A DNA stretch of 64,000 bases from an uncultured Gammaproteobacteria bacterium (GCA_964609095.1 CAZSQN010000001.1:214117-278116); one strand, 5' to 3'. Numbered from the stretch's first letter, positions 20 to 25,187 are shown. Notes: generated by a model from the sequence alone, not told the origin. Program-made: numbers and translations.

Positions 20-1138
20 TTGCCTTGCGCCAATAACAGCCAATGCAATTACAGCGGTTCATGCAGGTCCACGACCATTACCCAGCCGGCCGGGTATCAA
101 AAAATTCAAGATGGAGCAGGCGCGTCTATTGGCTGGGATAATCGCGAAGAGGCGACTTTGAACGAGCAGCCGTTCGCGCCGGTTATTGGTTCGCCGGACA
201 TTTCCGCTTGCGACCTGCAAAGCCAGAAGTGCCGCTTGCAAGGGCTTGCCATTGGCATAAATGATTTTGATTGCGGCGCAAGTTCTGATTGTCCAACCGG
301 CTGGACCTGCGGCGCAAGGACAACCTTTGGAGGAGGCGGCGATACTTCCGGTTCAACCTGCGTGCCGCCGCGCGGAATTGACGCTAACGCGCTCTCTATC
401 AATAACCGCGTTTCAGGGGAACTGCGCGCCGCCGGCAGTTATCGCGCGATTTTGCGCTTTTACGCTTGGGCCGATCACAATACTATGCCTATAACTTCGC
501 GTTCGGTTGACTGGGGCGACGGATTAGTGGAAAAGACGGTTGATTCCAAATATAAAAATCACAAGCCGACCTGTTCCGCCGGGGATACTGATGATGGCGC
601 CGCCAAAGAGTGCGGCGGAATGCCCGGGCTAACCTGCGCCAAGCAGGCGGACTGCCCGGCCGGCACAGGGCTTTGCGTGCCGGTTGGAAGGTGTTCAAGT
701 TCGCGGACGCGCTGCGCCGTTAACGAGGATTGTCCGCTTGGAGGAAACGGCGTTGAACGATGCGTACTCTCCCGTTTTGGCAATTCCCCAGATGCCTGCG
801 ATGAACAATACTTTGAGTTTGAGCATACTTATGTCTGCAACCGCGAGCTTATGTCCAGATTGCCTGATTGCGTTGGCGCCGATCTTGACCCGACAAATAA
901 AAACGCGCCGCACACGGCTTGCGCCAGAGACCTTGACGGCAATGGTTCCGCTGATTCGTGCCTGTTCCGTCCCAAAGTTCAGGTGCGCGATAATTGGGGA
1001 TACTGCAACGGAATTTGTCCGTCAGTCGGCAGAGACGGCTCGCCCGGCGGTTTGCGCTGTTACGAATCCGAGTGCGATGCGCACCCAGGAGCATGGACGG
1101 GCTTTGGAGGATTTATCACCATTACTCCCAGGAATTAG
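20..1138 (+). CDS. Cysteine-rich secreted protein; the ORF opens at the window edge with a non-ATG codon, so the 5' end is probably outside the window
   Basis: 372-aa ORF with about 40 Cys in recurring C-P-x-G and CxxxC contexts, Gly-rich, no TM segment; sits directly upstream of the VirB6-like gene. Confidence 0.45.
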   Translation: MPCANNSQCNYSGSCRSTTITQPAGYQKIQDGAGASIGWDNREEATLNEQPFAPVIGSPDISACDLQSQKCRLQGLAIGINDFDCGASSDCPTGWTCGARTTFGGGGDTSGSTCVPPRGIDANALSINNRVSGELRAAGSYRAILRFYAWADHNTMPITSRSVDWGDGLVEKTVDSKYKNHKPTCSAGDTDDGAAKECGGMPGLTCAKQADCPAGTGLCVPVGRCSSSRTRCAVNEDCPLGGNGVERCVLSRFGNSPDACDEQYFEFEHTYVCNRELMSRLPDCVGADLDPTNKNAPHTACARDLDGNGSADSCLFRPKVQVRDNWGYCNGICPSVGRDGSPGGLRCYESECDAHPGAWTGFGGFITITPRN

Positions 1139-1141
1139 CTT

Positions 1142-3685
1142 ATGAAATTCTTTAAACACAAATTATCAGTTCCCATAGCCGTCGCGGTGTTCGCGGCTCT
1201 CGCGGTTGCGGTCTTTAGTTTTGCCAAGCCGGTTTGGGCGCAAGGATTCTTTAGCCAGTTTGGGGCGGCAAGCATAACAAGCATAGGAGATATCATCAGA
1301 ATAATTGTCGGCTCAATAGTGTTTATCTACGTTCATTTTATCGGCCTTCTTTTGCTTATTATCATCAATGTTCTGACGCAGGTGGCAAGTTATAATGATT
1401 TTGTAAACAGCGCGGTAGTGGTAAACGGCTGGGCAATTGTGAGAGACCTTTCTAATATGTTTTTTATCCTGATTTTGCTCTACATTGCCTTTGCCACGAT
1501 TTTGGGAGTGAGCGGAATGGACTGGAAACAGCGTCTGCCAAAATTGCTCATCTTTGCGATTCTTATAAACTTTACCCGCGTGATTGCCGGACTCGCCATT
1601 GATTTTGGCCAGGTGATAATGATTACTTTTGTCAATGGCTTCAAAGACGCGGCCGGAGGGAATTTTGCCGAACTTCTGGGCATTAAGGACATGCTTGAGG
1701 TTTCCGTGCCCGGCGGCCTGCAGCAGGCGCAGCAGATTGCCACCGGCAATGTTGGCGGCGCGGCCATTGACTTCTTGCAAGTGATAGGAGGCATGATCGG
1801 CGCCGCGCTTTTTGCAACCGTTGCCTTAATCGTGATTATTGCCATCACTCTTGTGCTTGTCTATCGCATGGTCATGCTCTGGATTTATGTTGTTCTTTCT
1901 CCGCTTGCTTTTATCCTGGGCGCTTTTCCGCAGGGAGAAAGTTATTATGCCCAGTGGTGGAAGCAGTTTACCAGCGCCATTGCCGTCGGGCCGCTTTTGG
2001 CATTTTTCTTGTGGCTTTCGCTTCTCTCCGTCGGTTCCATAACGCAAGGCATAAGCCAAACCGCGATTGCGGAATTGCAGGGGGGCCAATCGGCGGCGGC
2101 GCAGGTCTCCTGCGGCGCGAGTCAAATTTGCCAGCCGGACAATGTTCTTAAATTTATCATTGGCATCGGACTTTTGATGGGCGGGCTTACCATTTCGCAA
2201 TCAATGGCCGCTTCTGCCGGAGGAGGAATGGAAGGAATCGTGGGTTGGGCAAAGAAGGCTGCGCCCGGAGCAATGAAAAAGATAACCGGGGTTGCGGCCA
2301 TTCAGCGCGGATACGCGGCGTATAAGGCGCAGCGCGAAGAATATAAAAAAGGCGGGCTTGTCACGCAGATGGGAACACGAATGGGAGCGGGCACAAATGT
2401 CATATTCGGGTTGGGCTCAAAACGCGCGAAGCAGCAGCAAAGAAACGTGTTAGAAGCGGATTTAGAGAAGAAGAAATCATATATTGACCATCTCACTAAC
2501 GCGGATTTGGCCAAGCAGAGAACAACTGAGGCGTACGCAAAACTTGCCGATCGCGGAGCTCTGACGCGCGAGTTTATCGCCGAGCATGGTTTGGATCCAA
2601 AGATGATGGAAGCCGCGTTTATGCCCGGACTTGAAAAGAGCAAGAATTCTTTTAAGAAGAGTTTGAAAGCTACAAGCCCCAGCCATGCTTTTGATATGAG
2701 CGCGGATAAAGGAAGGGAAGAGGCAGCCGTCGCGGTAATTAAGGGTGAAACATCGCTTGATAAATTTGATCCCAAAGATCTTAATGCGGCTTTTGTCGCC
2801 AAAATCCAGCAAAAGGCCAGCTGGTCGGAAGAACGGTGGAATTCCGAAAAGAGCAAATTGGGCGTTGACGCGCAAGCTAATCTGCTCGGAGCGATGGCGG
2901 CCCATACGCAAAGCGTTGATTTGGGAAAAGTGAGCGGCGCGGATTTTGCCAAAGAATTGGCCTTGAAGCGGGTTGTGGCTAAAAGTATTTCTTTAGAAAA
3001 GGCGAATTTGGGCGCGTATAGTTATACCGATCCCGTGACGGGATTAAAAAAATCCGGAGACGCTTTGCGCGAATACGTGCGCGAGCAGGGCGAACGGTTG
3101 GCTATAACTGTTCCGCCGGACGAATTTGATAAACCGCAGATCGCCGCCGCCATCCAATTGGCAATGCCCGCTGTTGAATATGAAAAGTTCTTAAAAGCTT
3201 TATCGCCGGAGATTAAGGCAAAATACCAGTCGGGCGCCGGCAAGTTAGTCAGCGACCCCACGGCTCTGGGCTTCCTTACTAACGAAGAAAGGCGCAGAGT
3301 TCGCGAGCGTTCTATGGCCGCTGGCGCTGATTTTGGAACTGCTTATGACCAAGCTCCTGGCCGGCCGTGGCCATCTAATCCGTTGGCGGCAAGCGATTTT
3401 AGAGATTCGCTCAAGGGTTCAGAGGCCTCTAAGGTTGTCTTGAATATGAAAGTGCCTGACGTGTCGGCAACGGTCGCGTTTGATATCGTGGACAATCTTG
3501 ATCCCACGCAGTTTGTAGAGGCGGCCAAAGAAGCGGTGCGAACACGTAATAAAGAACAGCTGGATGTTTTGAGAAAGATTATGGCGGAGGTGGCCAGCGC
3601 TCCTGTCGTGCCGGGTTCAAATGCCGATAAGCTCAAAGCTAAGATGGCTGGTCCCACGCGAGCCCGCATCTTTGATGAAATCTAA
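1142..3685 (+). CDS. VirB6/TrbL-like polytopic membrane protein with a long hydrophilic C-terminal extension
   Basis: N-terminal ~350 aa contain a signal/TM segment followed by at least 6 strongly hydrophobic helices. C-terminal ~500 aa are charged and Lys-rich. RBS-like aggaa before the ATG. Clustered with PrgI-like and VirB4-like genes. Confidence 0.5.
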   Translation: MKFFKHKLSVPIAVAVFAALAVAVFSFAKPVWAQGFFSQFGAASITSIGDIIRIIVGSIVFIYVHFIGLLLLIIINVLTQVASYNDFVNSAVVVNGWAIVRDLSNMFFILILLYIAFATILGVSGMDWKQRLPKLLIFAILINFTRVIAGLAIDFGQVIMITFVNGFKDAAGGNFAELLGIKDMLEVSVPGGLQQAQQIATGNVGGAAIDFLQVIGGMIGAALFATVALIVIIAITLVLVYRMVMLWIYVVLSPLAFILGAFPQGESYYAQWWKQFTSAIAVGPLLAFFLWLSLLSVGSITQGISQTAIAELQGGQSAAAQVSCGASQICQPDNVLKFIIGIGLLMGGLTISQSMAASAGGGMEGIVGWAKKAAPGAMKKITGVAAIQRGYAAYKAQREEYKKGGLVTQMGTRMGAGTNVIFGLGSKRAKQQQRNVLEADLEKKKSYIDHLTNADLAKQRTTEAYAKLADRGALTREFIAEHGLDPKMMEAAFMPGLEKSKNSFKKSLKATSPSHAFDMSADKGREEAAVAVIKGETSLDKFDPKDLNAAFVAKIQQKASWSEERWNSEKSKLGVDAQANLLGAMAAHTQSVDLGKVSGADFAKELALKRVVAKSISLEKANLGAYSYTDPVTGLKKSGDALREYVREQGERLAITVPPDEFDKPQIAAAIQLAMPAVEYEKFLKALSPEIKAKYQSGAGKLVSDPTALGFLTNEERRRVRERSMAAGADFGTAYDQAPGRPWPSNPLAASDFRDSLKGSEASKVVLNMKVPDVSATVAFDIVDNLDPTQFVEAAKEAVRTRNKEQLDVLRKIMAEVASAPVVPGSNADKLKAKMAGPTRARIFDEI

Positions 3686-3693
3686 ATTAAATT

Positions 3694-5118
3694 ATGGCTG
3701 ACAAAATAAGATCGGAAAGAATAAGCGCTTTGCCTCAAGATATTTTTGATGAATTGTTTAGAGATGACGAATCAGAGTTAATCCAGGATCTGATTAAAGA
3801 ACATAAACTTAAAAAAGGAACCGAAGATATTATCGCGGAGCTTATCAGAGAGTTATTTATAAAAGATATCAGTTTAGAAGATTTTGCTCCAAAAATTGCT
3901 AAAAAAATTAGCATGTCAGACGAACTTGGAAGAAAGATCGCGGTAGATATTGCCAAGACGCGGCTTTTGCCGCACGAAGATTATTTTGCCGGCGTGGGAA
4001 GGCAAATCGTGATTTGGGGAGGAGAGCCGATTAAAGCGGAAAAGATTAAACCAACATCCTTGCCCGCGGATGCCCCCAAGGGCAGGGAAGCCAAGGGCGC
4101 GGCTCCGGTTGCCGCTCCGACGGCGGAGAGCGCGCCGGCGGCCGCAAAATCTTCATTTGAGCAAAGGGCGGAAGTTGAGGAAGAAGCGGAAATTTTAAAA
4201 AAGCAAAAAGAAACGGCGAAAATCACCCCCGTTACCCAATCAATTGAAGATAAATTGAATGAGAAAATAAAAGCGGTAGTCAGCGAGGCAAAGATTGTTT
4301 TTGCCAATCCCGCGTTAACCAAACGATTTGAAACCATAATTTCCGCGCGGCTTCGGGACGTGCGCGACGGGGCGGAAACAAAGGAAATGCTCTTGCGGGC
4401 GGATAAGGTTGGGGGTTTGGGATTGGGCGCGGCAGAAGCGGAGCGGGTTAGTCAGATTCTAAATCGCGTTTTTGCCGAATTTAGCGGTTTATATAGGAAA
4501 GAGGAAGAGGCAAAAAGGAAAGCGTTTTTAGCCGAACAAGCCGAGCGCGAGGCCTTGCGCAAAGCGGAACGGGAGAGGCGCGAGCGCGAGGAGCGGGAGA
4601 AGCTTTACGCCCGCGTTACCGGAGTCGCGCCCAGCATTACGAAGTTAGAAGTTAGAAGTTCGAAGGTGGAACAAGTGTCAGTCAGACCTCCAGCTTCCAG
4701 CTTCTCCCGACATAAAGTCGGGATCCCGACCGAAGTGTCGGGACAAATTCCAACTACCAAGCCGCGCATGGAGGAAGTCAAGTTTACGCCAAAGATAACT
4801 GGTCCGGTGGAAGAACTGGCGCAAATGACTTTAATTGAGTTTCGCCGTCTTTCTAAAGACGCGAAAGAGGCGGTCTTGAAGATTGGGGATAAAATTGACC
4901 TTTTGGAAGAAGAAGATTTTGGGAAAAAAGTCGCCGGCATTAAGGCCTGGCAGGGATCGGGGGTAAACAAGCTTTATCTTGATTTGCTTAAGGATGGCTT
5001 GAACAGGGGTGTCGGCATTTCCGCCATTATTGATGAAAAAGCAAAAGGAGGAGCGGAAACTCTAACCAAAGCCGAATTTGATGCTATAATGGAGTTGAAC
5101 AGAAATTTAAGATTCTAA
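3694..5118 (+). CDS. Hypothetical charged/coiled-coil protein with an internal heptamer-repeat insertion
   Basis: 474-aa ORF, KE-rich, ERERREREEREK stretch. Nucleotides 4641-4707 carry (AGAAGTT)x3 plus a CCAGCTT-type inverted arm translated in frame. Confidence 0.45.
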   Translation: MADKIRSERISALPQDIFDELFRDDESELIQDLIKEHKLKKGTEDIIAELIRELFIKDISLEDFAPKIAKKISMSDELGRKIAVDIAKTRLLPHEDYFAGVGRQIVIWGGEPIKAEKIKPTSLPADAPKGREAKGAAPVAAPTAESAPAAAKSSFEQRAEVEEEAEILKKQKETAKITPVTQSIEDKLNEKIKAVVSEAKIVFANPALTKRFETIISARLRDVRDGAETKEMLLRADKVGGLGLGAAEAERVSQILNRVFAEFSGLYRKEEEAKRKAFLAEQAEREALRKAERERREREEREKLYARVTGVAPSITKLEVRSSKVEQVSVRPPASSFSRHKVGIPTEVSGQIPTTKPRMEEVKFTPKITGPVEELAQMTLIEFRRLSKDAKEAVLKIGDKIDLLEEEDFGKKVAGIKAWQGSGVNKLYLDLLKDGLNRGVGISAIIDEKAKGGAETLTKAEFDAIMELNRNLRF

Positions 5119-5127
5119 CCTTAATGT

Positions 5128-5160
5128 AGTCGCATCCCGATACAAATTATCGGGATGCGA
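5128..5160 (+). other. 11-bp perfect stem-loop (gcatcccgata-caaat-tatcgggatgc) immediately after the stop of the preceding CDS
   Basis: Seen directly. No U-run follows, so a terminator function is uncertain; possible processing or stability element. Confidence 0.4.
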
Positions 5161-5233
5161 AAGCGAGTGGCCGCGTAGCGTTATGAGGGCTACTGCAAGG
5201 AGCCCGAATATCAGCGAAGCGGGAAAAGGAGCT

Positions 5234-5671
5234 ATGCCTGAACAATTCGTCGTGCCGCAATTCCTTGATGTGGAAGATAAAATTTTGGGGCCGATAACGG
5301 CGCGCCAGTTTATTATTTTAATTGTCACTTTTTTGGTCGCGGCCATAATGTACCGCCTGCTTGCTTTCGGATATTTTATTTTTTTTGGAATACTGGTTAT
5401 TGCCGCCGGAGCCGTGATTGCTTTTGTGCGCATCAACGGCCAGCCGTTTCATTATTTTCTGCTTAATTTGGTGCAGACCTTGCGCCGGCCGCCGCTCCGC
5501 GTTTGGAACAAGCAGCTATTCGCGGCAGAATTAAAAGAATTGATGAACATCGCGCCGGCGCCGCCGCCTCCGCCAAAACCGGTAAAAGAAAAATTGGCCG
5601 CCAGCCGCATTAACGAATTGACTTTAATACTTAACACCGGCGGAGCGTATAATCCGGAACAATACAAATAA
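5234..5671 (+). CDS. PrgI-family (VirB3-like) small membrane protein of a type IV secretion/conjugation-like system
   Basis: N-terminal motif VPQFLDVEDKILGPITARQF followed by two TM helices. Strong RBS aaaaggag 5 nt before the ATG at 5234; the ORF track begins earlier at 5183. The motif matches my recollection of PrgI-family proteins. Confidence 0.55.
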   Translation: MPEQFVVPQFLDVEDKILGPITARQFIILIVTFLVAAIMYRLLAFGYFIFFGILVIAAGAVIAFVRINGQPFHYFLLNLVQTLRRPPLRVWNKQLFAAELKELMNIAPAPPPPPKPVKEKLAASRINELTLILNTGGAYNPEQYK

Positions 5672-5675
5672 AAGA

Positions 5676-5750
5676 GGGTACAGGGGACAGGGTAGAGGGT
5701 ATAGTAAATTAAAAAACTAAACCCTAAACCCTAAACCCTAAACCCTAAAA
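5676..5750 (+). repeat. Heptamer-repeat leader element, CCCTAAA class (copy A): GGGTACAGGGGACAGGGTAGAGGGTATAG + spacer + (CCCTAAA)x4, ending ...AAAAATGTG
   Basis: Near-identical copy at 6451-6525; related copies at 39576-39643, 28572-28624 (minus) and 33101-33181 (minus), all abutting start codons. Confidence 0.8.
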
Positions 5751-5761
5751 ATGTGCCTGAG

Positions 5762-6445
5762 ATGCAAAATCCAAAAATTGTTTCCTCTCGTCCGACAACT
5801 GCCACGCAGAGATATTTGGATATTTCCGAAATCAAAGACGATGCGGTGATATTAAAAGACGGCTCTTTGCGCGTCGTGCTTATCTGCTCCAGCATAAATT
5901 TTGCCTTAAAGTCCGAAGACGAGCAGAACGCGCTTATTTCCGCTTATGTGGGATTTTTAAATTCTTTGGATTTTCCCATTCAGGTGGTAGTGCAGTCGCG
6001 GCGGCTTAACATTGAGGATTATATTGAACGGTTAAAAGCGGTTGAAAAGCAGCAAAAAAACGAGCTTCTGCGCGTGCAAATAGCCGATTATCGCACTTTT
6101 ATCGCCGAACTGGTGTCATTGGGGCAGATTATGTCCAAGCGGTTTTATGCGGTCGTGCCTTACAGCCCTTTGGGCAACAAAAGAAAAGGTTTTTTCGCGC
6201 GGTTTAGCGAGGCGCTTTCTCCGGCTCTTTCGGTAAAACTCCGCGAGGAACGGTTTCAGGAAAAGAAAAAGGACATGATGCTCCGCGTAAATCAAGTTAT
6301 TTCAGGATTGGCATCGATGAGCGTGCAGGCGGTCCAGCTTGATTCGCAAGGATTAATAGAGCTTTATTATAATGTTTATAATCCGGATATTTTTGAATCC
6401 CAGCCGCTCGCGGAACTGGGCCAATTGCGGGTGGAACAAAGATAA
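5762..6445 (+). CDS. Hypothetical protein in the T4SS-like cluster (start either GTG 5753 or ATG 5762)
   Basis: ORF track 5753..6445; no TM segments; lies between the PrgI-like and VirB4-like genes. Confidence 0.45.
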   Translation: MQNPKIVSSRPTTATQRYLDISEIKDDAVILKDGSLRVVLICSSINFALKSEDEQNALISAYVGFLNSLDFPIQVVVQSRRLNIEDYIERLKAVEKQQKNELLRVQIADYRTFIAELVSLGQIMSKRFYAVVPYSPLGNKRKGFFARFSEALSPALSVKLREERFQEKKKDMMLRVNQVISGLASMSVQAVQLDSQGLIELYYNVYNPDIFESQPLAELGQLRVEQR

Positions 6446-6450
6446 AACCA

Positions 6451-6525
6451 GGTTATAGGGGACAGGGTAGAGGGTATAGTAAATTAAAAAACTAAACCCT
6501 AAACCCTAAACCCTAAACCCTAAAA
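6451..6525 (+). repeat. Heptamer-repeat leader element, CCCTAAA class (copy B), directly upstream of virB4-like
   Basis: GGTTATAGGGGACAGGGTAGAGGGTATAGTAAATTAAAAAACTAAACCCTAAACCCTAAACCCTAAACCCTAAAAATGTG; the in-frame start of the following gene is the GTG overlapping the terminal ATG. Confidence 0.8.
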
Positions 6526-6527
6526 AT

Positions 6528-8438
6528 GTGGCATTTAGACCGCTCCAAATTTTCAAGAAAAAACAGCCGGGGATAGTGGCTCCTGTTTTGGGCGAGGAGG
6601 CGCGCAAGGCGGAAGAAGCCAAAGCCAAATTGGAAAAGATCGCGCTTGAAGAAGAGCGCGTATATCGCCGCGGCGTTGTTTCTATCCGCGATATTATCGC
6701 TCCGGCCTCTCTTAAAGTTGACCCGTCAATGGTAGTTTTAGGCGACAATTATGTCCGCACTCTTTTTGTGCTTACTTATCCGAGATACATTTCCGTGGGC
6801 TGGTTTGCCCCGATATTGAATCTTTCCATGACGCTTGATGTGGGAATGTTTTTTTATCCCGTGCCGGCGGATATTATTTTGAAACAGTTAAAAAATAAAG
6901 TCGGCACATTGGAGGCGCAAATTATTTCTGATTCAGAAAAAGGCGCGCCGCGCGATCCGCTTCGCGAAACCGCGCTCCGCGATGTTGAAAGTTTGCGCGA
7001 TTCCTTAACCCAGGGCACCGAGCACTTCTTCCAATACGCGCTTTATGTGACTCTTTACGCCAAGAGCGCTGAAGAGCTGAACAAGCGCACGGAAGAGATA
7101 GAAACGCTCTTCGGCTCAAAACTTATCTACACTAAACGGACGTACTACCAATCAGAACAGGGTTTTAATTCTACCATTCCTCTTGGCAATGACGAGCTGA
7201 TGATAACCTTTAACATGAATTCATCTCCGATCGCCTCGTCGTTTCCTTTTATGTCGGCGGACCTTACTTCCGACGGGGGAGTGCTTTACGGCATCAATCG
7301 GCATAATAATTCTTTAATTTTATTTGACCGGTTTTCTCTGCAGAACGCCAATATGGTGGTGTTTGCCACTTCCGGCGCGGGCAAAAGCTACGCGGTCAAG
7401 CTGGAAGTTTTGCGGTCATTGATGATGGGAACAGATGTTATTATTATTGACCCGGAGATGGAGTACAAACATCTTTCCGACGCGGTAGGCGGCACTTATA
7501 TTTCCATTTCTTTGGCTTCGGAGAGCAAAATCAATCCTTTTGAACTGCCGCGGCCCGTGGGAGAGCAGATTAGCACGGAAGACATAATCAGAAGCGCGGT
7601 TATCACGGCCAAAGGCCTGCTGCGCATAATGTTTGGCGCCATCACCCCGGAAGAGGATTCCCTTGTAGACCGCGCCTTGCTTGAAACCTATGCCAAAAAA
7701 GACATTACGGCCGCATCTGATTTGACCAAAGTTGAACCGCCGATAATGCAGGATTTCGCGGAAGTGCTTGAAGGAATGGAGGGCACGGCCAATCTTGTTT
7801 TGAAAATTAAAAAATATACCGAAGGAACTTTTGCCGGCTTGTTTAACTCTCCCACCACGGTTGACCTTAAAAATCCTTTCGTTGTGTTTTCCGTGCGCGA
7901 TCTTGAGGATGAACTGCGGCCTATGGCCATTTACGCCATTGTCAATTTTATCTGGAATGTGGTTAGGAGCGAACGGAAAAAGAGAATCCTCGTTATTGAC
8001 GAGGCCTGGTGGCTGATGCAAAACGATGATTCCGCCAAGTTTATTTTCGCGCTGGTCAAGCGCTGCAGAAAATACTATTTGGGCATAACTACCATTACGC
8101 AGGATGTAAACGACTTTTTGCGTTCTCCATACGGCCAGGCCATAGTCACCAATTCTTCAATTCAGATGCTGTTAAAGCAATCGCCCGCGTCAATTGATTT
8201 GGTGCAAAAAACGTTTCTTTTGACCGAAGGGGAAAAGTATCTGCTCTTGGAGAGCGCGGTTGGCGAGGGCATATTTTTTGCCGGACCGCGGCACGCGGCC
8301 ATAAAGGTTGTGGCTTCTTACACCGAAGACCAGCTTATCACCACGGACCCGCGGCAATTATTGGAAATTGAACAAGCAAAGAAAGAATTTGAGGCGCAGT
8401 TAAAGGGCGGCGAACCGGAAGCGCCGGACATTGGATAG
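6528..8438 (+). CDS. virB4: VirB4/TraC-family type IV secretion ATPase
   Basis: Walker A (FATSGAGKSY) and Walker B (ILVIDEAWWLM) motifs, ~636 aa, typical VirB4 N-terminal region; GTG start overlapping the ATG of the upstream element. Confidence 0.8.
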   Translation: MAFRPLQIFKKKQPGIVAPVLGEEARKAEEAKAKLEKIALEEERVYRRGVVSIRDIIAPASLKVDPSMVVLGDNYVRTLFVLTYPRYISVGWFAPILNLSMTLDVGMFFYPVPADIILKQLKNKVGTLEAQIISDSEKGAPRDPLRETALRDVESLRDSLTQGTEHFFQYALYVTLYAKSAEELNKRTEEIETLFGSKLIYTKRTYYQSEQGFNSTIPLGNDELMITFNMNSSPIASSFPFMSADLTSDGGVLYGINRHNNSLILFDRFSLQNANMVVFATSGAGKSYAVKLEVLRSLMMGTDVIIIDPEMEYKHLSDAVGGTYISISLASESKINPFELPRPVGEQISTEDIIRSAVITAKGLLRIMFGAITPEEDSLVDRALLETYAKKDITAASDLTKVEPPIMQDFAEVLEGMEGTANLVLKIKKYTEGTFAGLFNSPTTVDLKNPFVVFSVRDLEDELRPMAIYAIVNFIWNVVRSERKKRILVIDEAWWLMQNDDSAKFIFALVKRCRKYYLGITTITQDVNDFLRSPYGQAIVTNSSIQMLLKQSPASIDLVQKTFLLTEGEKYLLLESAVGEGIFFAGPRHAAIKVVASYTEDQLITTDPRQLLEIEQAKKEFEAQLKGGEPEAPDIG

Positions 8439-8515
8439 AATCTGGAATATGGAATCTGGAATTTAGAAAAGAAAATTCTAAATTCTAAATTCTAAATTCT
8501 AAATTCAGTTCTACC
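8439..8515 (+). repeat. Heptamer-repeat leader element, ATTCTAA class: imperfect (GGAATNT)n arm + aagaaa + (ATTCTAA)x4, ending 8 nt before the ATG at 8516
   Basis: Arms are imperfect reverse complements; same architecture as the CCCTAAA class; related copy at 42981-43059. Confidence 0.75.
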
Positions 8516-9121
8516 ATGACGCGTACCCGACGCAACATACTAATAATGTCTTCCGGAGCTATCCTTATAGGGTTGGCGATATTTTTATTGCTTCGTCCGA
8601 AGAAGTCCGCGTTTGTCCCTCCATCGGCGCCGCCGGAGGCAAAATTGCCCGAAGCGATTTTGCCGGCGCCTCCGACCGCGCCGGCGGCGGCAAATCTTGC
8701 TCCTGAAGAGCGGACAGAAATTCAGAAACAGCGCAGCCGCGAGTTAGAGGCGCGAAGAGTCGCCCAGTCGTTTTTGGAGCGTTACGGCAGCTTTTCCAAT
8801 CAGGGAAATTTTGAAAATATTTCCGATTTAGAGCCGCTTATGACCGTGAATATGAAAAAAGTCGCGGCAAACTATGTGCGCGAGCAAAAATCCCTTTATC
8901 CGGCGGAGAAGGGATATTATGGAATAACCACCCGCGCGCTGACTTCAGCTCTTTCCGCTATGAGCGAATCGCGCGTTATTGTGACTATCGGAACGCAGAG
9001 GCAGGAGTCGGCGGGGAGTTCGGAGACGCCGCGGATTTTATATCAGGAAGCGACTCTTCAATTGGTTAAAATCGGTTCAGTTTGGAAAATAGACGATGTA
9101 AGCTGGGGGAGCGTAAAATAA
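8516..9121 (+). CDS. Bitopic membrane protein (N-terminal TM, Pro/Ala-rich linker, C-terminal globular domain); VirB8-like topology, identity not established
   Basis: 201-aa ORF; TM ILIMSSGAILIGLAIFLLL; immediately downstream of virB4-like. Confidence 0.4.
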   Translation: MTRTRRNILIMSSGAILIGLAIFLLLRPKKSAFVPPSAPPEAKLPEAILPAPPTAPAAANLAPEERTEIQKQRSRELEARRVAQSFLERYGSFSNQGNFENISDLEPLMTVNMKKVAANYVREQKSLYPAEKGYYGITTRALTSALSAMSESRVIVTIGTQRQESAGSSETPRILYQEATLQLVKIGSVWKIDDVSWGSVK

Positions 9122-9192: not shown

Positions 9193-12100
9193 ATGAAATC
9201 TAAACTAAAAACAATTTTATTTACTTTACAGGTGTTTATGAAAAATAAACGTCGGCAAATATGCGCGTTCGCAATATTTTCTATTTTAGTTATCGTTGCC
9301 GCTCCAGTTCGGGCGGAACATCTAACAGATAGAAACGTTATCTTTTCAGAATTTAAGGGCCATATTCAATTTCGCGAGCTTCAGCCAGGCCACGGCAGTA
9401 ATTCTTACCCCGTTCCTTCAACTGAAAAAATTACTTTCTGGGATCCCGGTTATATTGACAGGTTCAGACCCGGCACCGTGGTTACCGACTTAAATGACAG
9501 CACGGTCAATCTTAACAATATCCAACTTGCCGAATGCAGCGGTTCCACCCCTTCGCTTGCTGGCGCGGGAAGCTGTGGCGGGCCCAATCTCTGCGTTTTC
9601 GCGAGAGTGATTCGTCCCAATCGAGCTAGTCCTTACATTGAGTGTACGCCACGGCATTTAAGAGCAGAAACTGTATATCGGCTTATGGCGCGAGGAGTGA
9701 CGGGCAACGGAACGGTAGATAACAATGCCGTAACCGGCATGAGTATGTGGGAGCCCGGAAGAGACGGTTCGCCTAATTCTGAAATTTTACAAACATTTTT
9801 CAAGACGCGCGCATGGACTCCGCCCACAGATTACTTATTTGATTTTGGCGACGCGGGAGTTGGTTTCCCTACGCTTCGCTCTGAAAATGGGCCGCGGCAT
9901 GATGTAAGTGGAAGAGTTTGGCTTGGAAATGACGTTGATGCCGAGTCCATGGCTTTGCGGTTCAATCTTGACGATGCGGATGGCGATGACGAAGACGGGA
10001 TGATAAGCGACAGCCCCCTTGTTGTTCGAGTAAGCTCCGGCAATATGACTGGCCCGGCTTACATCAACGCATGGGAAGATTGGAATAATAACGGCCGATG
10101 GGATATTAATGCCGACGGTAGTCCGGGCGATGAATGGATTGTGCGTAATCAACGTGTTGATGTGCGGCCAAATGCTCGGCAAGATGTTGCTTTGCTGCAG
10201 CCGCGCGTTGATGCGAACGGCAATCCCTTGAGAGCGGCGTGGTCTGACCCCTCGTTTCAGCTGCGTTTAACGGTAACAGAAAGACCAATTCCTGATGGTC
10301 GCCCCGCTATTAGCTCGTATCCAAGCGGAGAAACAGAAGATTATTATAATGGTCCTAATGATGGCGGAGGCGGAGGAGGTGGAGGCGGAGGAGGCGAGGA
10401 TGGAGATAGAGGCGGAGGTTTTGATTTTGGCGACGCGCCAGATCCGCGCTTTCCTTCGCTTCTTGCGAGCAACGGCGCCCGGCACCGCGATACTTCGGTT
10501 GTTTGGTTTGGCAATAGAGTCAGCGCCGAAGCAGACGCGCGAGTAATCGATAATGATACTGAAGATGACGGTCTTTTGTCGGCTTCTCCGTTAACCGTTC
10601 GCTTAAATACCGCCCGGAATGTCAGAGCCGGCGCGCGATTTTTCGTTAACATCCTTATTGACCGGAATAATAACGGCGTTTGGGAGCCGAATTTAGGCGA
10701 GTGGGTGGTGCAAAATCATATTTGGCGAGCATCCAGATTCCCATTTATAGAATCATTAATATTTAGACGGAATGTTTTGAAGTTTAATGTCAATTGGAAA
10801 CCCGAGCGTGAAGGGTGGCTTAGAATGACGGTTACCGAAGTTACCAAAGAGGACGGGAAATTAGTAAATTACAACGGTTCCTGGCTGACTGAATTTAGAG
10901 TCGGAGAAACCGAAGATTATAAAACTTTTAAAAAACCACCGGGTAAGCCACCGGGCAAACCGCCAAGCGAACCGCCGGGCAAACCGCCAGACAAGCCATC
11001 TACATCCACCCCTCCACTGACTCCAGTTGATAAAACTGTCAGCGCGGGTCTTAAACCCTCAAGCCCGCTTTATTTCCTGGACAAGCTTTCAGAAAAAGTA
11101 GATTTGGCGTTGACTTTTAATCCGGAAAAAAAGGTTAAAAAGGCGCTTTCTTACGCCCAGGAACGATTGGATGAAGTTGAAGCGTTGATGGTGGAAAATA
11201 AGCTGGAGGAGGCAAAAAAAGCCGGAGCGCTTTACGGTAAAAATATTGATTCGGCCGTTAAAATAATTAAAAAAATAAAAGACATTGCCCGCGCAGAAAG
11301 TTTGGTAACAAGCTTTTTTGATCAAGTAGCGCATTTCAATGAAAATATTGTCCGTTATGAAGATTCTGGACATGGCCCGTTCGTCCTCCCTCCTTGCTAT
11401 CCCGATCCCACTACTCACAGCAAAGAACCGTGCTTTCCTTATAAACCGCCAGAACCGTTTGTTCCGTTATCCGAAGGAGATCCGCGAAGCGAGGCCTCGG
11501 AAATAGATTTTCGCGCTGATAAATCAGAAATCACCTTAGGCGAAACGGTCACATTATTTTGGAAGATTACCGGTGTTGTTGAAGCAAATTATGGCAATCA
11601 AGCTCAAGGGCAGCTAGGCAATCCGCTCAACGGCTGGGAAGTGAGGCAAGGCGCTCGCGAAGAGATGCCGACTCAAATCGGAATCAATACCTATTTTATT
11701 GTCGCTAAAACACCAACTGGAGCCACGCTTGGTAAGGAAACGCAAGTTAAAGTAGTCGCACCGCCGCCTAAAGATACAGTTTCGCCGCCTCCGCCGCCCG
11801 AGCCGCCGGTCACGCCTTCAAAACCATCAGTAAGTTTAAGCTGCGATCCTGATCCTCTGGTTATATCTCATTATGATGAAGGTTTGTTAAAGATTAAGGT
11901 TTCACCCGAATCAGAAAAAATCAGTTCGCTGGACTACGAACGCGGCTTTAAAAATGTCACTGATGATCATACTGTTGTCATTCAGAAGAATAATAAAGAA
12001 ATTAAACTAATTGCGGCAAAACGGCATATTGCGCCGGATCAAAAAATAGAAATCCCGCTGGTCGCCAAATTTGAACGCAAAGAACTTGGAGAAGCAAAAG

Positions 12101-13017
12101 CAACTTGCCGGGTTATTGTAACTCATAAGCAATTAGGAACGCCCGAAAAAGAATCGTCTAAGGATACTGAACCAACCAGCGTAAAGCCAACGATTGATTC
12201 TTTCGCGAGCGACGCGTCTCAGATCGAAAAAGACCAGAAGGTAACTTTGCAATGGAAGACGAATGGCGCGGATAAAGTCACCTTGAACGGCGTTACCGTG
12301 GCCGCGAGCGGTTCCAAAACCGAAAAACCGGATGCTACCACCGCCTATAAACTTGTAGCGACGAATAAATCCGGGTCGGTTTCTAAAGAATTGACCGTTA
12401 AGGTCGTAGTTTCCACCGAGCCGACTACTCAACAGCCAGTGATTGAATCATTTACTTCGAGCGCGACTGCTGTTGAAGAAGGGCAATCTGTTATCCTGCG
12501 GTGGGATGTTGCCGGCGCTGACAGTGTCACTCTAAATGGCGCCACTGTATCGGCGAGCGGTTCCAAAACCGAAAGTCCAAGCACAATTACTACCTACACG
12601 CTTGTCGCCAAAAATAAAGACGGGTCGGTTTCTAAATCATTAACTGTCAATATCTTGATTCCCACTACACCAGCCGAATTTGACGGCTCTTATACTACGA
12701 GCGGCAGAACTCTCAACGGAAGCTTTACTATTACCGGTGAAGTAGATGTAAACGGATTTGAATTATCTTTGGTGGGTTTACCCGCGCCGGTATCTATTGA
12801 TTTGAATCTTAATAACGGAACCGGCTGGCCGGAGGATTGGAGAGCGGAAGTTGTCGGCACGAAAAAAGTTTTTCAAGGAACAACGCGATTAAACCGCAAT
12901 CAACTCCAGAGATTTTCAGTAACTTTTAACGAAACATTGCAAACTAATACCGCCATTGATTTTAATCTACTTTTTAACGGTAACAGAGTAAGATTCGGCC
13001 AATTAGATAAGCAATAA
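9193..13017 (+). CDS. Very large secreted surface protein with two GEVED-like domains, a poly-Gly tract, a PGKPP linker, a DUF5667-like module and two tandem Ig-like repeats
   Basis: Signal peptide; FDFGDA...GETEDYYNG and FDFGDAPDP...GETEDYKTF motifs (the GEVED-domain signature as I recall it); (GGN)12 at 10363-10398; PGKPPGKPPSEPPGKPPDKP; two ~80-aa tandem repeats (PTIDSF...TVKVVV and PVIESF...TVNILI). The C-terminal ~330 aa are shared with the next gene. Confidence 0.6.
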   Translation: MKSKLKTILFTLQVFMKNKRRQICAFAIFSILVIVAAPVRAEHLTDRNVIFSEFKGHIQFRELQPGHGSNSYPVPSTEKITFWDPGYIDRFRPGTVVTDLNDSTVNLNNIQLAECSGSTPSLAGAGSCGGPNLCVFARVIRPNRASPYIECTPRHLRAETVYRLMARGVTGNGTVDNNAVTGMSMWEPGRDGSPNSEILQTFFKTRAWTPPTDYLFDFGDAGVGFPTLRSENGPRHDVSGRVWLGNDVDAESMALRFNLDDADGDDEDGMISDSPLVVRVSSGNMTGPAYINAWEDWNNNGRWDINADGSPGDEWIVRNQRVDVRPNARQDVALLQPRVDANGNPLRAAWSDPSFQLRLTVTERPIPDGRPAISSYPSGETEDYYNGPNDGGGGGGGGGGGEDGDRGGGFDFGDAPDPRFPSLLASNGARHRDTSVVWFGNRVSAEADARVIDNDTEDDGLLSASPLTVRLNTARNVRAGARFFVNILIDRNNNGVWEPNLGEWVVQNHIWRASRFPFIESLIFRRNVLKFNVNWKPEREGWLRMTVTEVTKEDGKLVNYNGSWLTEFRVGETEDYKTFKKPPGKPPGKPPSEPPGKPPDKPSTSTPPLTPVDKTVSAGLKPSSPLYFLDKLSEKVDLALTFNPEKKVKKALSYAQERLDEVEALMVENKLEEAKKAGALYGKNIDSAVKIIKKIKDIARAESLVTSFFDQVAHFNENIVRYEDSGHGPFVLPPCYPDPTTHSKEPCFPYKPPEPFVPLSEGDPRSEASEIDFRADKSEITLGETVTLFWKITGVVEANYGNQAQGQLGNPLNGWEVRQGAREEMPTQIGINTYFIVAKTPTGATLGKETQVKVVAPPPKDTVSPPPPPEPPVTPSKPSVSLSCDPDPLVISHYDEGLLKIKVSPESEKISSLDYERGFKNVTDDHTVVIQKNNKEIKLIAAKRHIAPDQKIEIPLVAKFERKELGEAKATCRVIVTHKQLGTPEKESSKDTEPTSVKPTIDSFASDASQIEKDQKVTLQWKTNGADKVTLNGVTVAASGSKTEKPDATTAYKLVATNKSGSVSKELTVKVVVSTEPTTQQPVIESFTSSATAVEEGQSVILRWDVAGADSVTLNGATVSASGSKTESPSTITTYTLVAKNKDGSVSKSLTVNILIPTTPAEFDGSYTTSGRTLNGSFTITGEVDVNGFELSLVGLPAPVSIDLNLNNGTGWPEDWRAEVVGTKKVFQGTTRLNRNQLQRFSVTFNETLQTNTAIDFNLLFNGNRVRFGQLDKQ

Positions 13018-13024
13018 ACATAAT

Positions 13025-15484: not shown

Positions 15485-15522
15485 AAGGTCGCAAAATATT
15501 AATCATTAAAAAGTTATAATTT

Positions 15523-15966: not shown

Positions 15967-15991
15967 TAGAATTTGTTATAATATAAATTAT

Positions 15992-16594: not shown

Positions 16595-16645
16595 ACAAAA
16601 ACGACAATACCGTGGGACCCATCCTGTTAAACAAGCAATAAATTA

Positions 16646-23065: not shown

Positions 23066-23081
23066 TAGGCGATGGCGGGTA

Positions 23082-25175: not shown

Positions 25176-25187
25176 TGGAAATCAAAT

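What the first reader, a model, noticed from the sequence alone, without database searches (positions are those of the whole stretch)
1142..9121. VirB6-like, PrgI-like and VirB4-like genes forming a minimal type IV secretion/conjugation-like module next to giant surface proteins
The co-directional block reads: a Cys-rich secreted protein; an 847-aa VirB6/TrbL-like polytopic protein with a large soluble C-terminal extension; a charged protein; a PrgI/VirB3-like protein; an unknown protein; a VirB4 ATPase; and a bitopic VirB8-topology protein. It is followed by the GEVED-domain giants. No relaxase or coupling protein (VirD4) is visible in the window. That would fit a secretion or host-interaction apparatus rather than a conjugative element, as proposed for episymbiotic small-genome bacteria. 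Two of its genes are preceded by the CCCTAAA leader elements and use GTG starts.
Basis: partly seen in the sequence, partly recalled or inferred. Interest (0 to 1): 0.55.

Follow-up and report, generated by a model that had tools for sequence, protein, structure and literature searches.

The report
Patescibacteria chromosomal type IV secretion locus
This is the chromosomal type IV secretion gene cluster typical of ultra-small Patescibacteria (CPR) bacteria, a system already described in papers from 2023 and 2025; it is thought to serve contact with a host bacterium rather than plasmid conjugation, so the finding is correct but not new.

Summary
The gene block is real. Window 1142-9121 encodes, all on the + strand:
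- an extended VirB6-like membrane protein;
- a conserved charged protein of unknown fold ('p474');
- PrgI/VirB3;
- the VirB4 ATPase;
- a bitopic protein with the VirB8/PrgL fold.

HMM hits, two AlphaFold models and gene order in 80 related species support these calls. The locus matches the published Patescibacteria T4SS (Wang 2023; Quinonero-Coronel 2025). It shows the arrangement reported for class ABY1: T4SS genes with comF, recG, radA and a VirB2-like pilin gene.

I found no relaxase, coupling protein or integrase in the 64-kb window or in the 10 kb upstream. The context is housekeeping genes.

- The 'Cys-rich secreted protein' is the tail of a 3215-aa giant.
- The giants downstream are a lineage-specific insertion. 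It splits a junction between the virB8-like gene and comFC that is otherwise conserved.
- The 'CCCTAAA leaders' are the 3' arms of hairpins built from 7-nt repeats.

Function is unproven. A host-contact channel or pilus is most likely; DNA import remains an open alternative. This is a new member of a known kind, of modest interest.

The parts
20..1138 (+). C-terminal 372 aa (7% Cys) of a 3215-aa secreted giant protein. Its stop lies 3 nt before the virB6-like start.
   Evidence: One search gives the full gene as L001:350-9997. CBM_4_9 carbohydrate-binding domain, E 2.7e-9. The Cys-rich C-terminal module recurs in 16 related loci directly upstream of virB6-like, with a gap of -89 to +312 nt in 15 of them.
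1142..3685 (+). Extended VirB6/TrbL-like protein. The polytopic domain is about residues 1-360 (nt 1142-2221). The variable, charged, helical C-terminal extension is about residues 361-847.
   Evidence: Pfam TrbL is sub-threshold but covers nearly the full model. Homologs P0159, P0165 and P0168 pass the TrbL cut-off. The AF2 model has pLDDT 78.7. The top 5 Foldseek PDB hits are all TrwI/VirB6 of R388, prob 0.99-1.0, E about 0.02. The N-domain is conserved in 52 of 80 loci; the C-extension in 1-2.
3694..5118 (+). 'p474': a conserved, charged protein without TM segments and without known homology. It has a variable N-terminus, a central motif RLKDxRDxxET..GGxGL, a Pro-rich linker and a conserved C-terminal domain of about 110 aa.
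   Evidence: Present between virB6-like and prgI in 70 of 80 loci. 2258 clusters at 50% identity match at E<=1e-3. No Pfam, NCBIfam or PDB-sequence match. The central motif occurs 1-3 times per protein in relatives.
5183..5671 (+). PrgI/VirB3-like small membrane protein. The true start is probably ATG 5234, giving 145 aa.
   Evidence: Pfam PrgI 40.8 bits, above the 27 cut-off. Orthologs are 141-150 aa. Present in 74 of 80 loci.
5672..5752 (+). Intercistronic hairpin built of 7-nt units: a G-rich arm, then (AAACCCT)4 ending 3 nt before the GTG.
   Evidence: MFE -33.4 kcal/mol, z -4.7. The sequence is read.
5753..6445 (+). TrsD-like protein, the detached N-terminal segment of VirB4.
   Evidence: NCBIfam VirB4_plasma positions 102-224 (E 1.9e-8) and TrsD/TraD family (E 4.9e-6). 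Pfam TraC-like on the public gene call. It is a separate ORF next to virB4 in 78 of 80 loci. 29% identical (E 2e-29) to the equivalent ORF of a Pontibacillus plasmid.
6446..6527 (+). Second copy of the same 7-nt-repeat hairpin, ending 3 nt before the virB4 GTG.
   Evidence: MFE -30.7 kcal/mol, z -3.7. Identical over at least 43 nt to the first copy.
6528..8438 (+). VirB4 ATPase (MPF_FATA / CD1110 type) lacking its first ~170 residues.
   Evidence: NCBIfam conju_CD1110 347 bits, above the 325 cut-off. Pfam P-loop_TraG E 2.5e-29. More than 8000 homologs; the top 120 are 74-87% identical and, where the source names the organism, the name is nearly always Patescibacteria. The best plasmid homologs are at most 35% identical.
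8439..8515 (+). Intercistronic 7-nt-repeat hairpin of another sequence class (GGAATNT / AAATTCT).
   Evidence: MFE -25.5 kcal/mol, z -5.95.
8516..9121 (+). Bitopic VirB8/PrgL-like protein: TM helix at residues 3-25, a disordered Pro-rich linker, and an NTF2-like domain at residues 63-200.
   Evidence: AF2 pLDDT 82.3. The top Foldseek PDB hit is 7aed, the PrgL VirB8 domain of pCF10 (E 2.3e-4, 21% id). CagV (6iqt, TM-score 0.74 normalised by target length) and Rickettsia VirB8 (4o3v) also match. Found directly after virB4 in 68 of 80 loci.
9193..17715 (+). Lineage-specific insertion: 1274-aa and 819-aa DUF5667 surface proteins plus three small membrane or secreted proteins. Not part of the conserved system.
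   Evidence: 0 of 80 related loci have homologs. In the sister species, comF directly follows the virB8-like gene. DUF5667 E 6e-18 and 7.5e-16; the GEVED hit is sub-threshold.
17790..18488 (+). ComFC-like protein (zinc ribbon plus phosphoribosyltransferase domain). In relatives it is the gene immediately after the virB8-like gene.
   Evidence: Pfam Pribosyltran and DZR_2. Same strand and adjacent in 70 of 74 eligible loci. The gap is at most 60 nt in 48 of 54, median -13.5 nt.
23025..26546 (.). recG (+ strand) and radA (- strand), conserved neighbours of the locus.
   Evidence: Pfam. Present in 26 and 21 of the loci with a long enough flank. Reported as typical for ABY1 T4SS loci (PMC12102498).
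26606..28571 (-). VirB2-like T4SS pilin-domain protein (436 aa: signal peptide, Pro-rich region, pilin hairpin at residues 106-165, and a C-terminal domain of about 270 aa) followed by DsbA.
   Evidence: Pfam T4SS_pilin 32.3 bits, above the 26.6 cut-off. NCBIfam Mbov_0395 pilin-like, weak. Orthologs lie beside radA in 17 loci.

Best explanation
[quoted passage not shown] It descends from the conjugation machinery of single-membrane bacteria (class MPF_FATA) but is not a conjugative element.

Likely mechanism (inferred from the roles of the homologous parts in studied T4SSs, not shown here):
- The VirB4 ATPase is encoded in two pieces, TrsD-like plus VirB4. It docks on the membrane through PrgI/VirB3 and the polytopic VirB6-like protein, which together form the membrane channel.
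- The bitopic VirB8/PrgL-like protein scaffolds the passage through the cell wall.
- VirB4 also drives assembly of a VirB2-like pilin encoded nearby.
- The co-transcribed Cys-rich giant with a carbohydrate-binding module, and the DsbA gene, suggest a disulfide-bonded surface adhesin.
- The apparatus is used at the contact with a host cell. The cargo (protein, nucleic acid or other) is unknown.
For: Component identities:
- VirB4 is above the NCBIfam CD1110 cut-off.
- PrgI is above the Pfam cut-off.
- TrsD-like N-terminal VirB4 piece.
- VirB6: homologs above the TrbL cut-off, and the top 5 PDB fold hits are the only solved VirB6.
- VirB8: the best PDB fold hit is PrgL of pCF10.
- T4SS_pilin is above the Pfam cut-off.

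Gene order:
- The order virB6 - prgI - (trsD) - virB4 - virB8-like parallels prgH-I-J-(K)-L of pCF10.
- The order is conserved in 80 species-level relatives, although the accessory proteins are only 25-60% identical.

Conservation of VirB4:
- It is 72-87% identical among Patescibacteria relatives and at most 35% identical to any plasmid VirB4.
- That pattern indicates strong purifying selection and vertical descent.

Context:
- The neighbours are housekeeping genes (recG, radA, pheST, dnaE, thrS, miaAB, gatB and others). No relaxase, T4CP or integrase was found in the window or in the 10 kb upstream.
- A related contig shows rsmA upstream of the giant's homolog.

Literature:
- The same component set, the lack of a relaxase, and comF/recG/radA neighbours in ABY1 are described in PMC12102498.
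- The T4SS of S. epibionticum is essential for epibiotic growth (PMC10633639).
Against: - No functional data exist for this organism or for any ABY1 member.
- Only 74 kb of a 200-kb contig was seen. The published survey found VirD4-like T4CP genes in most Patescibacteria genomes, usually far from virB4, so one may exist elsewhere in this genome. DNA transfer therefore cannot be excluded.
- The sequence evidence for VirB6 and VirB8 is weak when taken alone. The window's own TrbL hit is below cut-off. Foldseek E is about 0.02 for VirB6. NTF2-like folds unrelated to T4SS also match p201.
- No VirB1-type hydrolase was detected.
- The tight link to comFC hints at DNA handling rather than protein secretion.
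Confidence: 0.75

Rival explanations
1. DNA-import machine. The ABY1 version of the system would take up DNA (or export it) and hand single strands to ComFC, RadA and RecG. It would work like the Helicobacter pylori ComB T4SS or the archaeal Ced system, which also operate without a relaxase or coupling protein.
For: - comFC lies on the same strand directly after the virB8-like gene in 70 of 74 eligible related loci, abutting or overlapping it (median gap -13.5 nt).
- recG and radA are conserved neighbours (PMC12102498).
- The ancestry is a DNA-conjugation machine.
- There is no T4CP or relaxase, as in ComB (own knowledge of ComB; PMC7366825 is listed but was not read).
- Patescibacteria lack nucleotide synthesis (PMC10633639).
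Against: - In S. epibionticum the T4SS is essential, whereas comEC, comF and dprA are dispensable, and transformation depends on ComEC (PMC12857230).
- In this very genome an 8.6-kb insertion separates comFC from the T4SS genes, so tight co-expression is not obligatory.
- Gene adjacency alone does not show a shared pathway.
- No comEC or dprA is in the window.
Confidence: 0.17
2. Part of an ordinary integrative conjugative element whose relaxase, coupling protein and integrase lie outside the sequence seen.
For: - VirB4 belongs to a conjugation-type family, CD1110.
- One of 80 related loci (L035) has a bona fide T4CP next to virB6-like.
- Only 10 kb upstream of the window could be read.
Against: - There are 55 kb of housekeeping genes downstream. 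Upstream there is a giant surface protein plus a small gene whose homolog sits next to rsmA.
- The same chromosomal neighbours (comF, recG, radA, dsbA) recur across 80 species.
- GC content does not differ from the surroundings.
- VirB4 is 74-87% identical across thousands of Patescibacteria homologs but at most 35% to plasmid copies.
- Relaxases were found in only 103 of 3035 Patescibacteria genomes.
Confidence: 0.05
3. A decaying, non-functional remnant of an ancient conjugation system.
For: - VirB4 is split into two ORFs.
- Hairpin repeats are inserted in the spacers, displacing Shine-Dalgarno sequences.
- No hydrolase or T4CP was found.
Against: - The split is ancestral and present in 78 of 80 relatives, and also in a Bacillota plasmid.
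- All ORFs are intact. The Walker motifs are intact.
- Sequence and gene order are very well conserved.
- The homologous system is essential in S. epibionticum.
Confidence: 0.03

Closest known systems
Patescibacteria (CPR) T4SS as described by Wang et al. 2023 (Cell; S. epibionticum SEML1_0006-0019) and Quinonero-Coronel et al. 2025 (Microb Genom), ABY1-class arrangement
   Same: - VirB4 of the MPF_FATA-derived type, with TrsD, PrgI/VirB3, VirB6, rare VirB8 (mostly in ABY1) and a VirB2-like pilin (PF18895).
- Chromosomal location, with no relaxase or T4CP nearby.
- comF, recG and radA as neighbours in ABY1.
   Different: - Nothing essential differs.
- This genome has an 8.6-kb insertion of DUF5667 giants between the virB8-like gene and comF.
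- A 3215-aa Cys-rich giant is translationally abutted to virB6.
- There is a single distant pilin gene rather than a pilin array.
- No adjacent hydrolase was found.
- The conserved p474 family is not named in those papers, as far as I read them.
MPF_FATA conjugative T4SSs of Gram-positive plasmids: pCF10 Prg/Pcf (PrgH-PrgI-PrgJ-PrgK-PrgL) and pGO1/pSK41 Trs (TrsC-TrsD-TrsE)
   Same: - Same order: VirB6-like, VirB3-like, VirB4, VirB8-like.
- A TrsD-type separate N-terminal VirB4 homolog, as in pGO1.
- p201 has the PrgL fold.
   Different: - No T4CP (PcfC), relaxase (PcfG), PrgK hydrolase or PrgB adhesin.
- It has a VirB2-like pilin.
- VirB6 carries a roughly 490-aa extension.
- There is an extra conserved p474 protein, with no similarity to PrgD, PrgF or PrgG.
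- It is chromosomal and vertically inherited.
Pontibacillus sp. ALD_SL1 megaplasmid NZ_CP062975 cluster (closest plasmid-borne VirB4, 35% identity)
   Same: The order is T4SS_pilin, extended VirB6-like (779 aa), VirB3-like, TrsD-like (29% id, E 2e-29), short VirB4 (621 aa). The plasmid is typed non-mobilizable.
   Different: - It has a 1050-aa peptidoglycan endopeptidase after virB4.
- It has no p474, no VirB8-like gene after virB4 and no comF.
- The host is a Bacillota megaplasmid, and the cluster lies beside flagellar genes.
Helicobacter pylori ComB DNA-uptake T4SS (and the archaeal Ced system)
   Same: It works without a relaxase or coupling protein. It is functionally tied to ComFC (own knowledge; the review PMC7366825 is listed but was not read).
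   Different: - ComB is a diderm system with VirB7/9/10.
- There is no evidence here for DNA uptake.
- In S. epibionticum transformation depends on ComEC, and comEC, comF and dprA are dispensable for growth while the T4SS is essential.
'Extended VirB6' proteins (for example in Rickettsiales)
   Same: A polytopic VirB6 core plus a large hydrophilic C-proximal domain (PMC12857230).
   Different: The extension here is a charged, helical, fast-evolving sequence, conserved in only 1-2 of 80 relatives. No homology to the rickettsial extensions was tested.

Membership tests
Patescibacteria-clade T4SS (MPF_FATA-derived) | VirB4 of the monoderm FATA/CD1110 type, closest to other Patescibacteria VirB4s | tested here: met
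   NCBIfam conju_CD1110 347 bits, above the 325 cut-off. The top 120 homologs are 74-87% identical and, where the source names the organism, the name is nearly always Patescibacteria. Plasmid VirB4s are at most 35% identical. No phylogenetic tree was built.
Patescibacteria-clade T4SS (MPF_FATA-derived) | TrsD-like protein (N-terminal VirB4 homolog) encoded next to virB4 | tested here: met
   Adjacent in 78 of 80 related loci.
Patescibacteria-clade T4SS (MPF_FATA-derived) | VirB3/PrgI homolog near virB4 | tested here: met
   Pfam PrgI 40.8 bits, above the 27 cut-off.
Patescibacteria-clade T4SS (MPF_FATA-derived) | VirB6 homolog near virB4 | tested here: met
   The window's own Pfam hit is below cut-off (20.1 vs 25.9 bits). 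However, homologs at E 1e-51 to 1e-23 pass the cut-off, and the AF2 model's top 5 PDB matches are TrwI/VirB6. hhalign against the single sequences PrgH and Pontibacillus VirB6 was not significant.
Patescibacteria-clade T4SS (MPF_FATA-derived) | VirB8/PrgL-like bitopic protein (reported mainly in class ABY1) | tested here: met
   No HMM hit. AF2 pLDDT 82.3. The best Foldseek hit is the PrgL VirB8 domain, and CagV and Rickettsia VirB8 also match. Generic NTF2-fold proteins match as well, so the call rests on fold, topology and gene position together.
Patescibacteria-clade T4SS (MPF_FATA-derived) | VirB2-like pilin (PF18895) within about 20 genes of virB4 | tested here: met
   26606-27916 (- strand), T4SS_pilin 32.3 bits, above the 26.6 cut-off. 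About 14 coding genes lie between it and virB4.
Patescibacteria-clade T4SS (MPF_FATA-derived) | No relaxase near virB4; chromosomal context (ABY1: comF, recG, radA) | tested here: met
   Pfam scans of window ORFs, the upstream 10 kb, and the presence of comF, recG and radA.
Conjugative element (ICE or plasmid) | Relaxase (MOB) and oriT | tested here: not met
   No relaxase family hit in the window. tblastn with the pCF10 relaxase PcfG was negative. oriT was not searched. The rest of the genome was not available.
Conjugative element (ICE or plasmid) | Type IV coupling protein (VirD4/TcpA) | tested here: not met
   None in the window or in L001. Only 1 of 80 related loci has one beside the cluster (L035). 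The rest of the genome could not be tested with these tools.
Conjugative element (ICE or plasmid) | Integrase or excisionase and delimiting repeats; patchy distribution | tested here: not met
   No integrase in the window. The same neighbours recur across 80 species. GC content is not distinct. Flanking direct repeats were not searched.
ComB/Ced-type DNA-uptake T4SS | Demonstrated or genetically linked DNA import (ComEC, DprA, ComFC partners) | tested here: inconclusive
   The ComFC linkage is strong in relatives. There is no comEC or dprA in the window. Function cannot be tested here. Data from S. epibionticum argue against this as the essential role.

The most novel reading that the evidence does not exclude
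In class ABY1 the relaxase-less T4SS may be one functional unit with comFC (and with recG and radA). It would be a pilus-bearing, monoderm DNA-import or DNA-exchange machine analogous to H. pylori ComB or archaeal Ced. The conserved cytoplasmic p474 protein and the VirB6 extension would replace the coupling protein as the docking platform. This would give host-dependent bacteria a contact-dependent route to acquire host DNA or nucleotides.
Probability: 0.17. Interest if true: 0.65.

Novelty: new member of a known kind. Interest (0 to 1): 0.3.

Why it matters
Patescibacteria make up a large share of bacterial diversity and depend on host cells. Their T4SS is the first T4SS shown to be essential for the bacterium that carries it (in S. 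epibionticum), and its cargo is unknown.

This locus adds no new kind of system. It does give a clean ABY1 example, and three points are worth having:
- It adds fold-level support for the VirB6 and VirB8 components. VirB8 homologs were hard to find by sequence in the published survey.
- It points to a large conserved unknown family (p474, more than 2000 clusters at 50% identity) inside the operon.
- It documents how tightly comFC abuts the virB8-like gene across species, which is a testable lead to the system's function.

Tried and rejected
VirB6:
- A profile of full-length VirB6 orthologs against PDB sequences gave only coiled-coil noise from the charged C-extension.
- A profile of the N-domain alone found nothing.
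- hhalign of the VirB6 N-domain profile against PrgH and against the Pontibacillus VirB6-like protein was not significant, although both aligned at the same conserved helix.
- Only 4 of 40 orthologs hit Pfam TrbL at E<0.01.

p201:
- hhalign against PrgL was weak (E 0.014, 27% id over the whole domain).

p474:
- No Pfam hit among 42 orthologs.
- No PDB-sequence hit for the C-domain profile.
- No similarity to pCF10 PrgD, PrgF or PrgG.

Is the giant a VirB5-like tip protein?
- Weak N-terminal hits to DUF4141 (E 0.01) and VirB5 PRK13860 (E 0.05), plus its position before virB6, suggested this.
- The motif AQWVVTDP is not conserved in the only N-terminal homolog found (L089).
- It is absent from all ORFs in the related loci.
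- I rejected the idea as unsupported.

Other dead ends:
- tblastn with a Patescibacteria T4CP (from L035) and with pCF10 PcfC, PcfG and PrgK found nothing in the window, in L001 or in the other loci.
- The promoter-like sites at 5624 and 6353 come from a conserved 'YNPE/D' coding motif and are not evidence of promoters.
- The assembly accession was not found in the held supplementary text of PMC12102498, so I cannot say whether this MAG was in that survey.
- I could not walk further upstream than 10 kb.

Full report
**Observation.** ORF listing shows a tight co-directional block on the + strand: 20-1138, 1142-3685, 3694-5118, 5183-5671, 5753-6445, 6528-8438 and 8516-9121. Two large ORFs follow (9193-13017 and 13025-15484). 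An exact-sequence look-up places the window on NCBI assembly GCA_016181485.1, contig JACOZF010000007.1 (200,570 bp), at roughly 91.6-155.6 kb. It also provided 10 kb of upstream sequence as L001.

**Component identification.**

- *VirB4.* The 636-aa protein passes NCBIfam's cut-off for the CD1110 family of VirB4-like conjugal ATPases (347 vs 325 bits). It covers only model positions 172-729 of 752. Walker A (SGAGKS) and Walker B (ILVIDE) can be read in the translation.
- *TrsD.* The missing N-terminus is the 230-aa ORF upstream. It matches positions 102-224 of a Mycoplasma VirB4 model (E 1.9e-8), positions 25-95 of CD1110, and the TrsD/TraD family (E 4.9e-6). The public gene call carries Pfam 'TraC-like'.
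- *PrgI.* The 162-aa protein passes the Pfam PrgI cut-off (40.8 vs 27 bits). Orthologs are 141-150 aa, so ATG 5234 is the likelier start.
- *VirB6-like.* The 847-aa protein has about seven hydrophobic segments in residues 1-352 and a hydrophilic tail.
  - Its own TrbL/VirB6 hit is sub-threshold (20.1 vs 25.9 bits) but spans nearly the whole model.
  - Homologs of its N-domain at E 1e-51 to 1e-23 do pass the cut-off: P0159 at 37.2, P0165 at 29.4 and P0168 at 29.1 bits.
  - An AlphaFold model of residues 1-420 (pLDDT 78.7) has the five TrwI/VirB6 chains of the R388 T4SS as its five best PDB matches. Those have prob 0.99-1.0, E about 0.02 and target-normalised TM-score (TMt) 0.39-0.46. The next hits are designed helical repeats at prob 0.38 or less.
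- *VirB8-like.* The 201-aa protein has no HMM hit. Its model (pLDDT 82.3) shows a TM helix, a disordered Pro-rich linker and an NTF2-like domain. The best PDB match is the VirB8 domain of PrgL from pCF10 (7aed, E 2.3e-4, 21% identity). CagV (TMt 0.74) and a Rickettsia VirB8 follow, alongside unrelated NTF2-fold proteins.
- *p474.* The 474-aa protein has no TM segment, is rich in K, E and R, and matches nothing in Pfam, NCBIfam or PDB sequences.

**Comparative evidence.** A scan of one genome per species returned 80 loci with VirB4 72-82% identical. Where the records name the organism, it is Uhrbacteria, Magasanikbacteria, Falkowbacteria or Patescibacteria.

tblastn and ORF calling show a conserved order:

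- large upstream protein;
- virB6-like (744-1708 aa);
- 0-3 extra ORFs;
- p474;
- prgI;
- trsD;
- virB4;
- virB8-like;
- comF.

Counts out of 80 loci are below. They are lower bounds, because many contigs are short.

| Gene | Loci with a hit |
|---|---|
| VirB6 N-domain | 52 |
| p474 | 70 |
| PrgI | 74 |
| TrsD | 78 |
| VirB8-like | 68 |
| ComF | 70 |

Other points from the comparison:

- TrsD and VirB4 are separate ORFs wherever both are seen, usually 0-30 nt apart. The split is therefore ancestral and not a frameshift.
- The VirB6 C-extension is conserved in only 1-2 loci.
- The 1274-aa and 819-aa DUF5667 proteins and the three small ORFs after them have no homolog in any of the 80 loci.
- In the sister species (VirB4 87% identical), comF follows the virB8-like gene directly. 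So 9193-17715 is a lineage-specific insertion.
- Across relatives, comF is on the same strand in 70 of 74 eligible loci. It abuts or overlaps the virB8-like gene, with a median gap of -13.5 nt.
- Further downstream, a conserved two-TM protein, recG, radA, a VirB2-like pilin gene and dsbA recur. All are present in the window.
- The Cys-rich C-terminal module of the upstream giant recurs in 16 loci immediately before virB6-like. The giant also carries a CBM_4_9 carbohydrate-binding domain.
- p474 belongs to a large family: 2258 representative clusters at E<=1e-3. Its members have one to three copies of a central motif and a conserved C-terminal domain.

**Is it an ICE?** Pfam scans of the 44 ORFs that I judged to be real genes (nearly all of at least 150 aa) found only housekeeping and surface proteins, a reverse transcriptase, and no relaxase, T4CP or integrase. 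The 10 kb upstream hold only the giant and the end of a 199-aa gene.

A related metagenomic contig has a homolog of that small gene, and rsmA, upstream of the giant's homolog. tblastn with a genuine Patescibacteria T4CP (found beside the cluster in just one of 80 loci, L035) and with the pCF10 T4CP, relaxase and hydrolase found nothing. GC content is uniform.

The nearest plasmid VirB4s are at most 35% identical and come from Bacillota and Actinobacteria. The best is on a Pontibacillus megaplasmid. It sits in a similar pilin - VirB6-like - VirB3 - TrsD - VirB4 cluster.

**Comparison with the literature.**

- Quinonero-Coronel et al. 2025 (PMC12102498) surveyed 3035 Patescibacteria genomes.
  - They found a monophyletic VirB4 clade nested in MPF_FATA.
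  - TrsD was the most frequent accessory protein, followed by PrgI/VirB3, VirB6 and VirB2-like pilins.
  - VirB8 homologs were few and almost confined to class ABY1.
  - Relaxases were rare, and T4CP genes were usually far from virB4.
  - In ABY1, comF, recG and radA lay in the T4SS neighbourhood.
- Wang et al. 2023 (PMC10633639) showed that the T4SS of S. epibionticum is essential for epibiotic growth, resembles Gram-positive conjugative systems, and lacks recognisable coupling and relaxase proteins. They also showed that comEC, comF and dprA are dispensable.
- A 2025 review repeats these points and describes 'extended VirB6' proteins (PMC12857230).

The window matches this description feature by feature, so it is a further member of a known kind. 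I could not establish whether this MAG was in the published dataset.

**Mechanism.**

- *Shown here:* the identities, topology, gene order and conservation of the parts, and the absence of conjugation-specific genes nearby.
- *Inferred from studied T4SSs:* VirB4 (with TrsD) docks on PrgI and VirB6 at the membrane. The VirB8-like protein scaffolds the wall passage. A VirB2-like pilus is assembled. The CBM-bearing Cys-rich giant and DsbA provide a disulfide-bonded surface adhesin.
- *Unresolved:* whether the VirB6 tail is cytoplasmic. The K/R-rich segment after the last hydrophobic stretch, and the N-out/C-in paradigm of Agrobacterium VirB6 (own knowledge), favour the cytoplasm. In that case the tail and p474 could form a docking platform.
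- *Unknown:* the cargo. The conserved comFC junction keeps a DNA-handling role open, although the S. epibionticum data argue against it as the essential function.

**The 'CCCTAAA leader elements'.**

- They are the 3' arms of long imperfect hairpins built of 7-nt units: (AGGGTWT)n, a loop, then (AAACCCT)n. These fill the prgI-trsD and trsD-virB4 spacers and end 3 nt before the GTG. MFEs are -33 and -31 kcal/mol, with z -4.7 and -3.7.
- Three more copies precede murI, dsbA and clp. One of them has matching GCG/CGC changes on both arms.
- The virB4-virB8-like spacer and the spacer before the giant hold hairpins of a second 7-nt class. The spacer before thrS holds a third class.
- None of the 80 related loci has (CCCTAAA)2.
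- The sister species has hairpins at the same positions built of a different 7-nt unit (TTNTAGC / GCTAACA). Another relative uses GCTCGAA/GCTCGCA.
- No Rfam family matches.
- They are therefore not specific to the T4SS. They are a genome-wide, genome-specific class of intercistronic hairpins of unknown role.
- The virB4 GTG at 6528 is a real start, because it aligns with ATG and 'MAF.P' in 49 relatives. The public gene calls start later, at 6549 or 6588.

**Verdict.** This is a new member of a known kind, of modest interest (0.3). The most novel reading still open is a comFC-coupled DNA-import machine (probability about 0.17).

Noticed in passing
window 5672-5752, 6446-6527, 8439-8515, 28566-28640(-), 33094-33178(-), 39572-39646, 42990-43059, 51098-51183; L001:265-349; L090:9162-9240, 9928-9995; L029:9087-9155: Spacers between co-directional genes are filled by stable hairpins whose two arms are tandem 7-nt units.
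- There are at least three sequence classes in this genome: AGGGTWT/AAACCCT, GGAATNT/AAATTCT and TAGCTTT/AAAGCTA.
- The 3' arm ends 0-10 nt before the start codon in the copies I checked, leaving no Shine-Dalgarno sequence there.
- A sister species has hairpins at the same positions but built of a different 7-nt unit.
- No Rfam family matches.
- The architecture is conserved while the sequence is genome-specific. The function is unknown.
   Followed up: partly
window 35813-38224 (+): A diversity-generating retroelement.
- Reverse transcriptase at 37202-38224.
- Template repeat at 36650-36784.
- Variable repeat at 36169-36303, at the 3' end of ORF 35813-36301.
- Within the repeat, all mismatches lie at template adenines.
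   Followed up: partly
L087 (Pontibacillus sp. ALD_SL1 plasmid NZ_CP062975, 351.8-361.4 kb): The closest VirB4 outside Patescibacteria (35% identity) sits in a cluster with similar parts: T4SS_pilin (PF18895), a 779-aa VirB6-like protein, VirB3-like, TrsD-like, a short VirB4 and a large peptidoglycan endopeptidase. It is on a 'non-mobilizable' 898-kb megaplasmid beside flagellar genes. This shows that pilin-bearing, split-VirB4 systems also occur in Bacillota.
   Followed up: partly
window 26606-27916 (-): The VirB2-like pilin domain (residues 106-165) is embedded in a 436-aa protein. That protein also has a signal peptide, a Pro-rich region and a Cys-containing C-terminal domain of about 270 aa with no family hit. 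The gene lies directly upstream of dsbA, in the same direction.
   Followed up: no
window 6528-6590 and 5183-5234: Public gene calls start virB4 at 6549 (an ATT codon) or at 6588 (TTG). Conservation of 'MAF.P' in 49 relatives shows the start is GTG 6528. prgI is probably called 17 codons too long.
   Followed up: partly
window 18815-20473 (+): A 552-aa secreted protein with 6.9% Cys, built of repeated 'GxCxxxxxCxxYC...ECxxFA' units. It has no family hit and no homolog in the 80 related loci. It is one of several lineage-specific secreted proteins between comF and recG.
   Followed up: no
L035:2706-4316: One related genome (1 of 80) has a true coupling protein directly upstream of the virB6-like gene, with TrwB_AAD_bind, T4SS-DNA_transf and TraG-D_C domains. 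This shows that the cluster can be associated with a T4CP in some lineages.
   Followed up: partly
window 22994-23065 vs 23025-25175; 20561-20776 (-): There are three tRNA genes. The longest recG ORF (TTG start at 23025) overlaps the tRNA at 22994-23065, so recG must start further downstream.
   Followed up: no
L009, L010, L012 and many other loci: Many public MAG records that carry this Patescibacteria-type locus are titled 'uncultured Gammaproteobacteria bacterium' (the binchicken and SRP co-assembly bins), or Binatia, or Methylomirabilis. These are probably mislabelled records.
   Followed up: no
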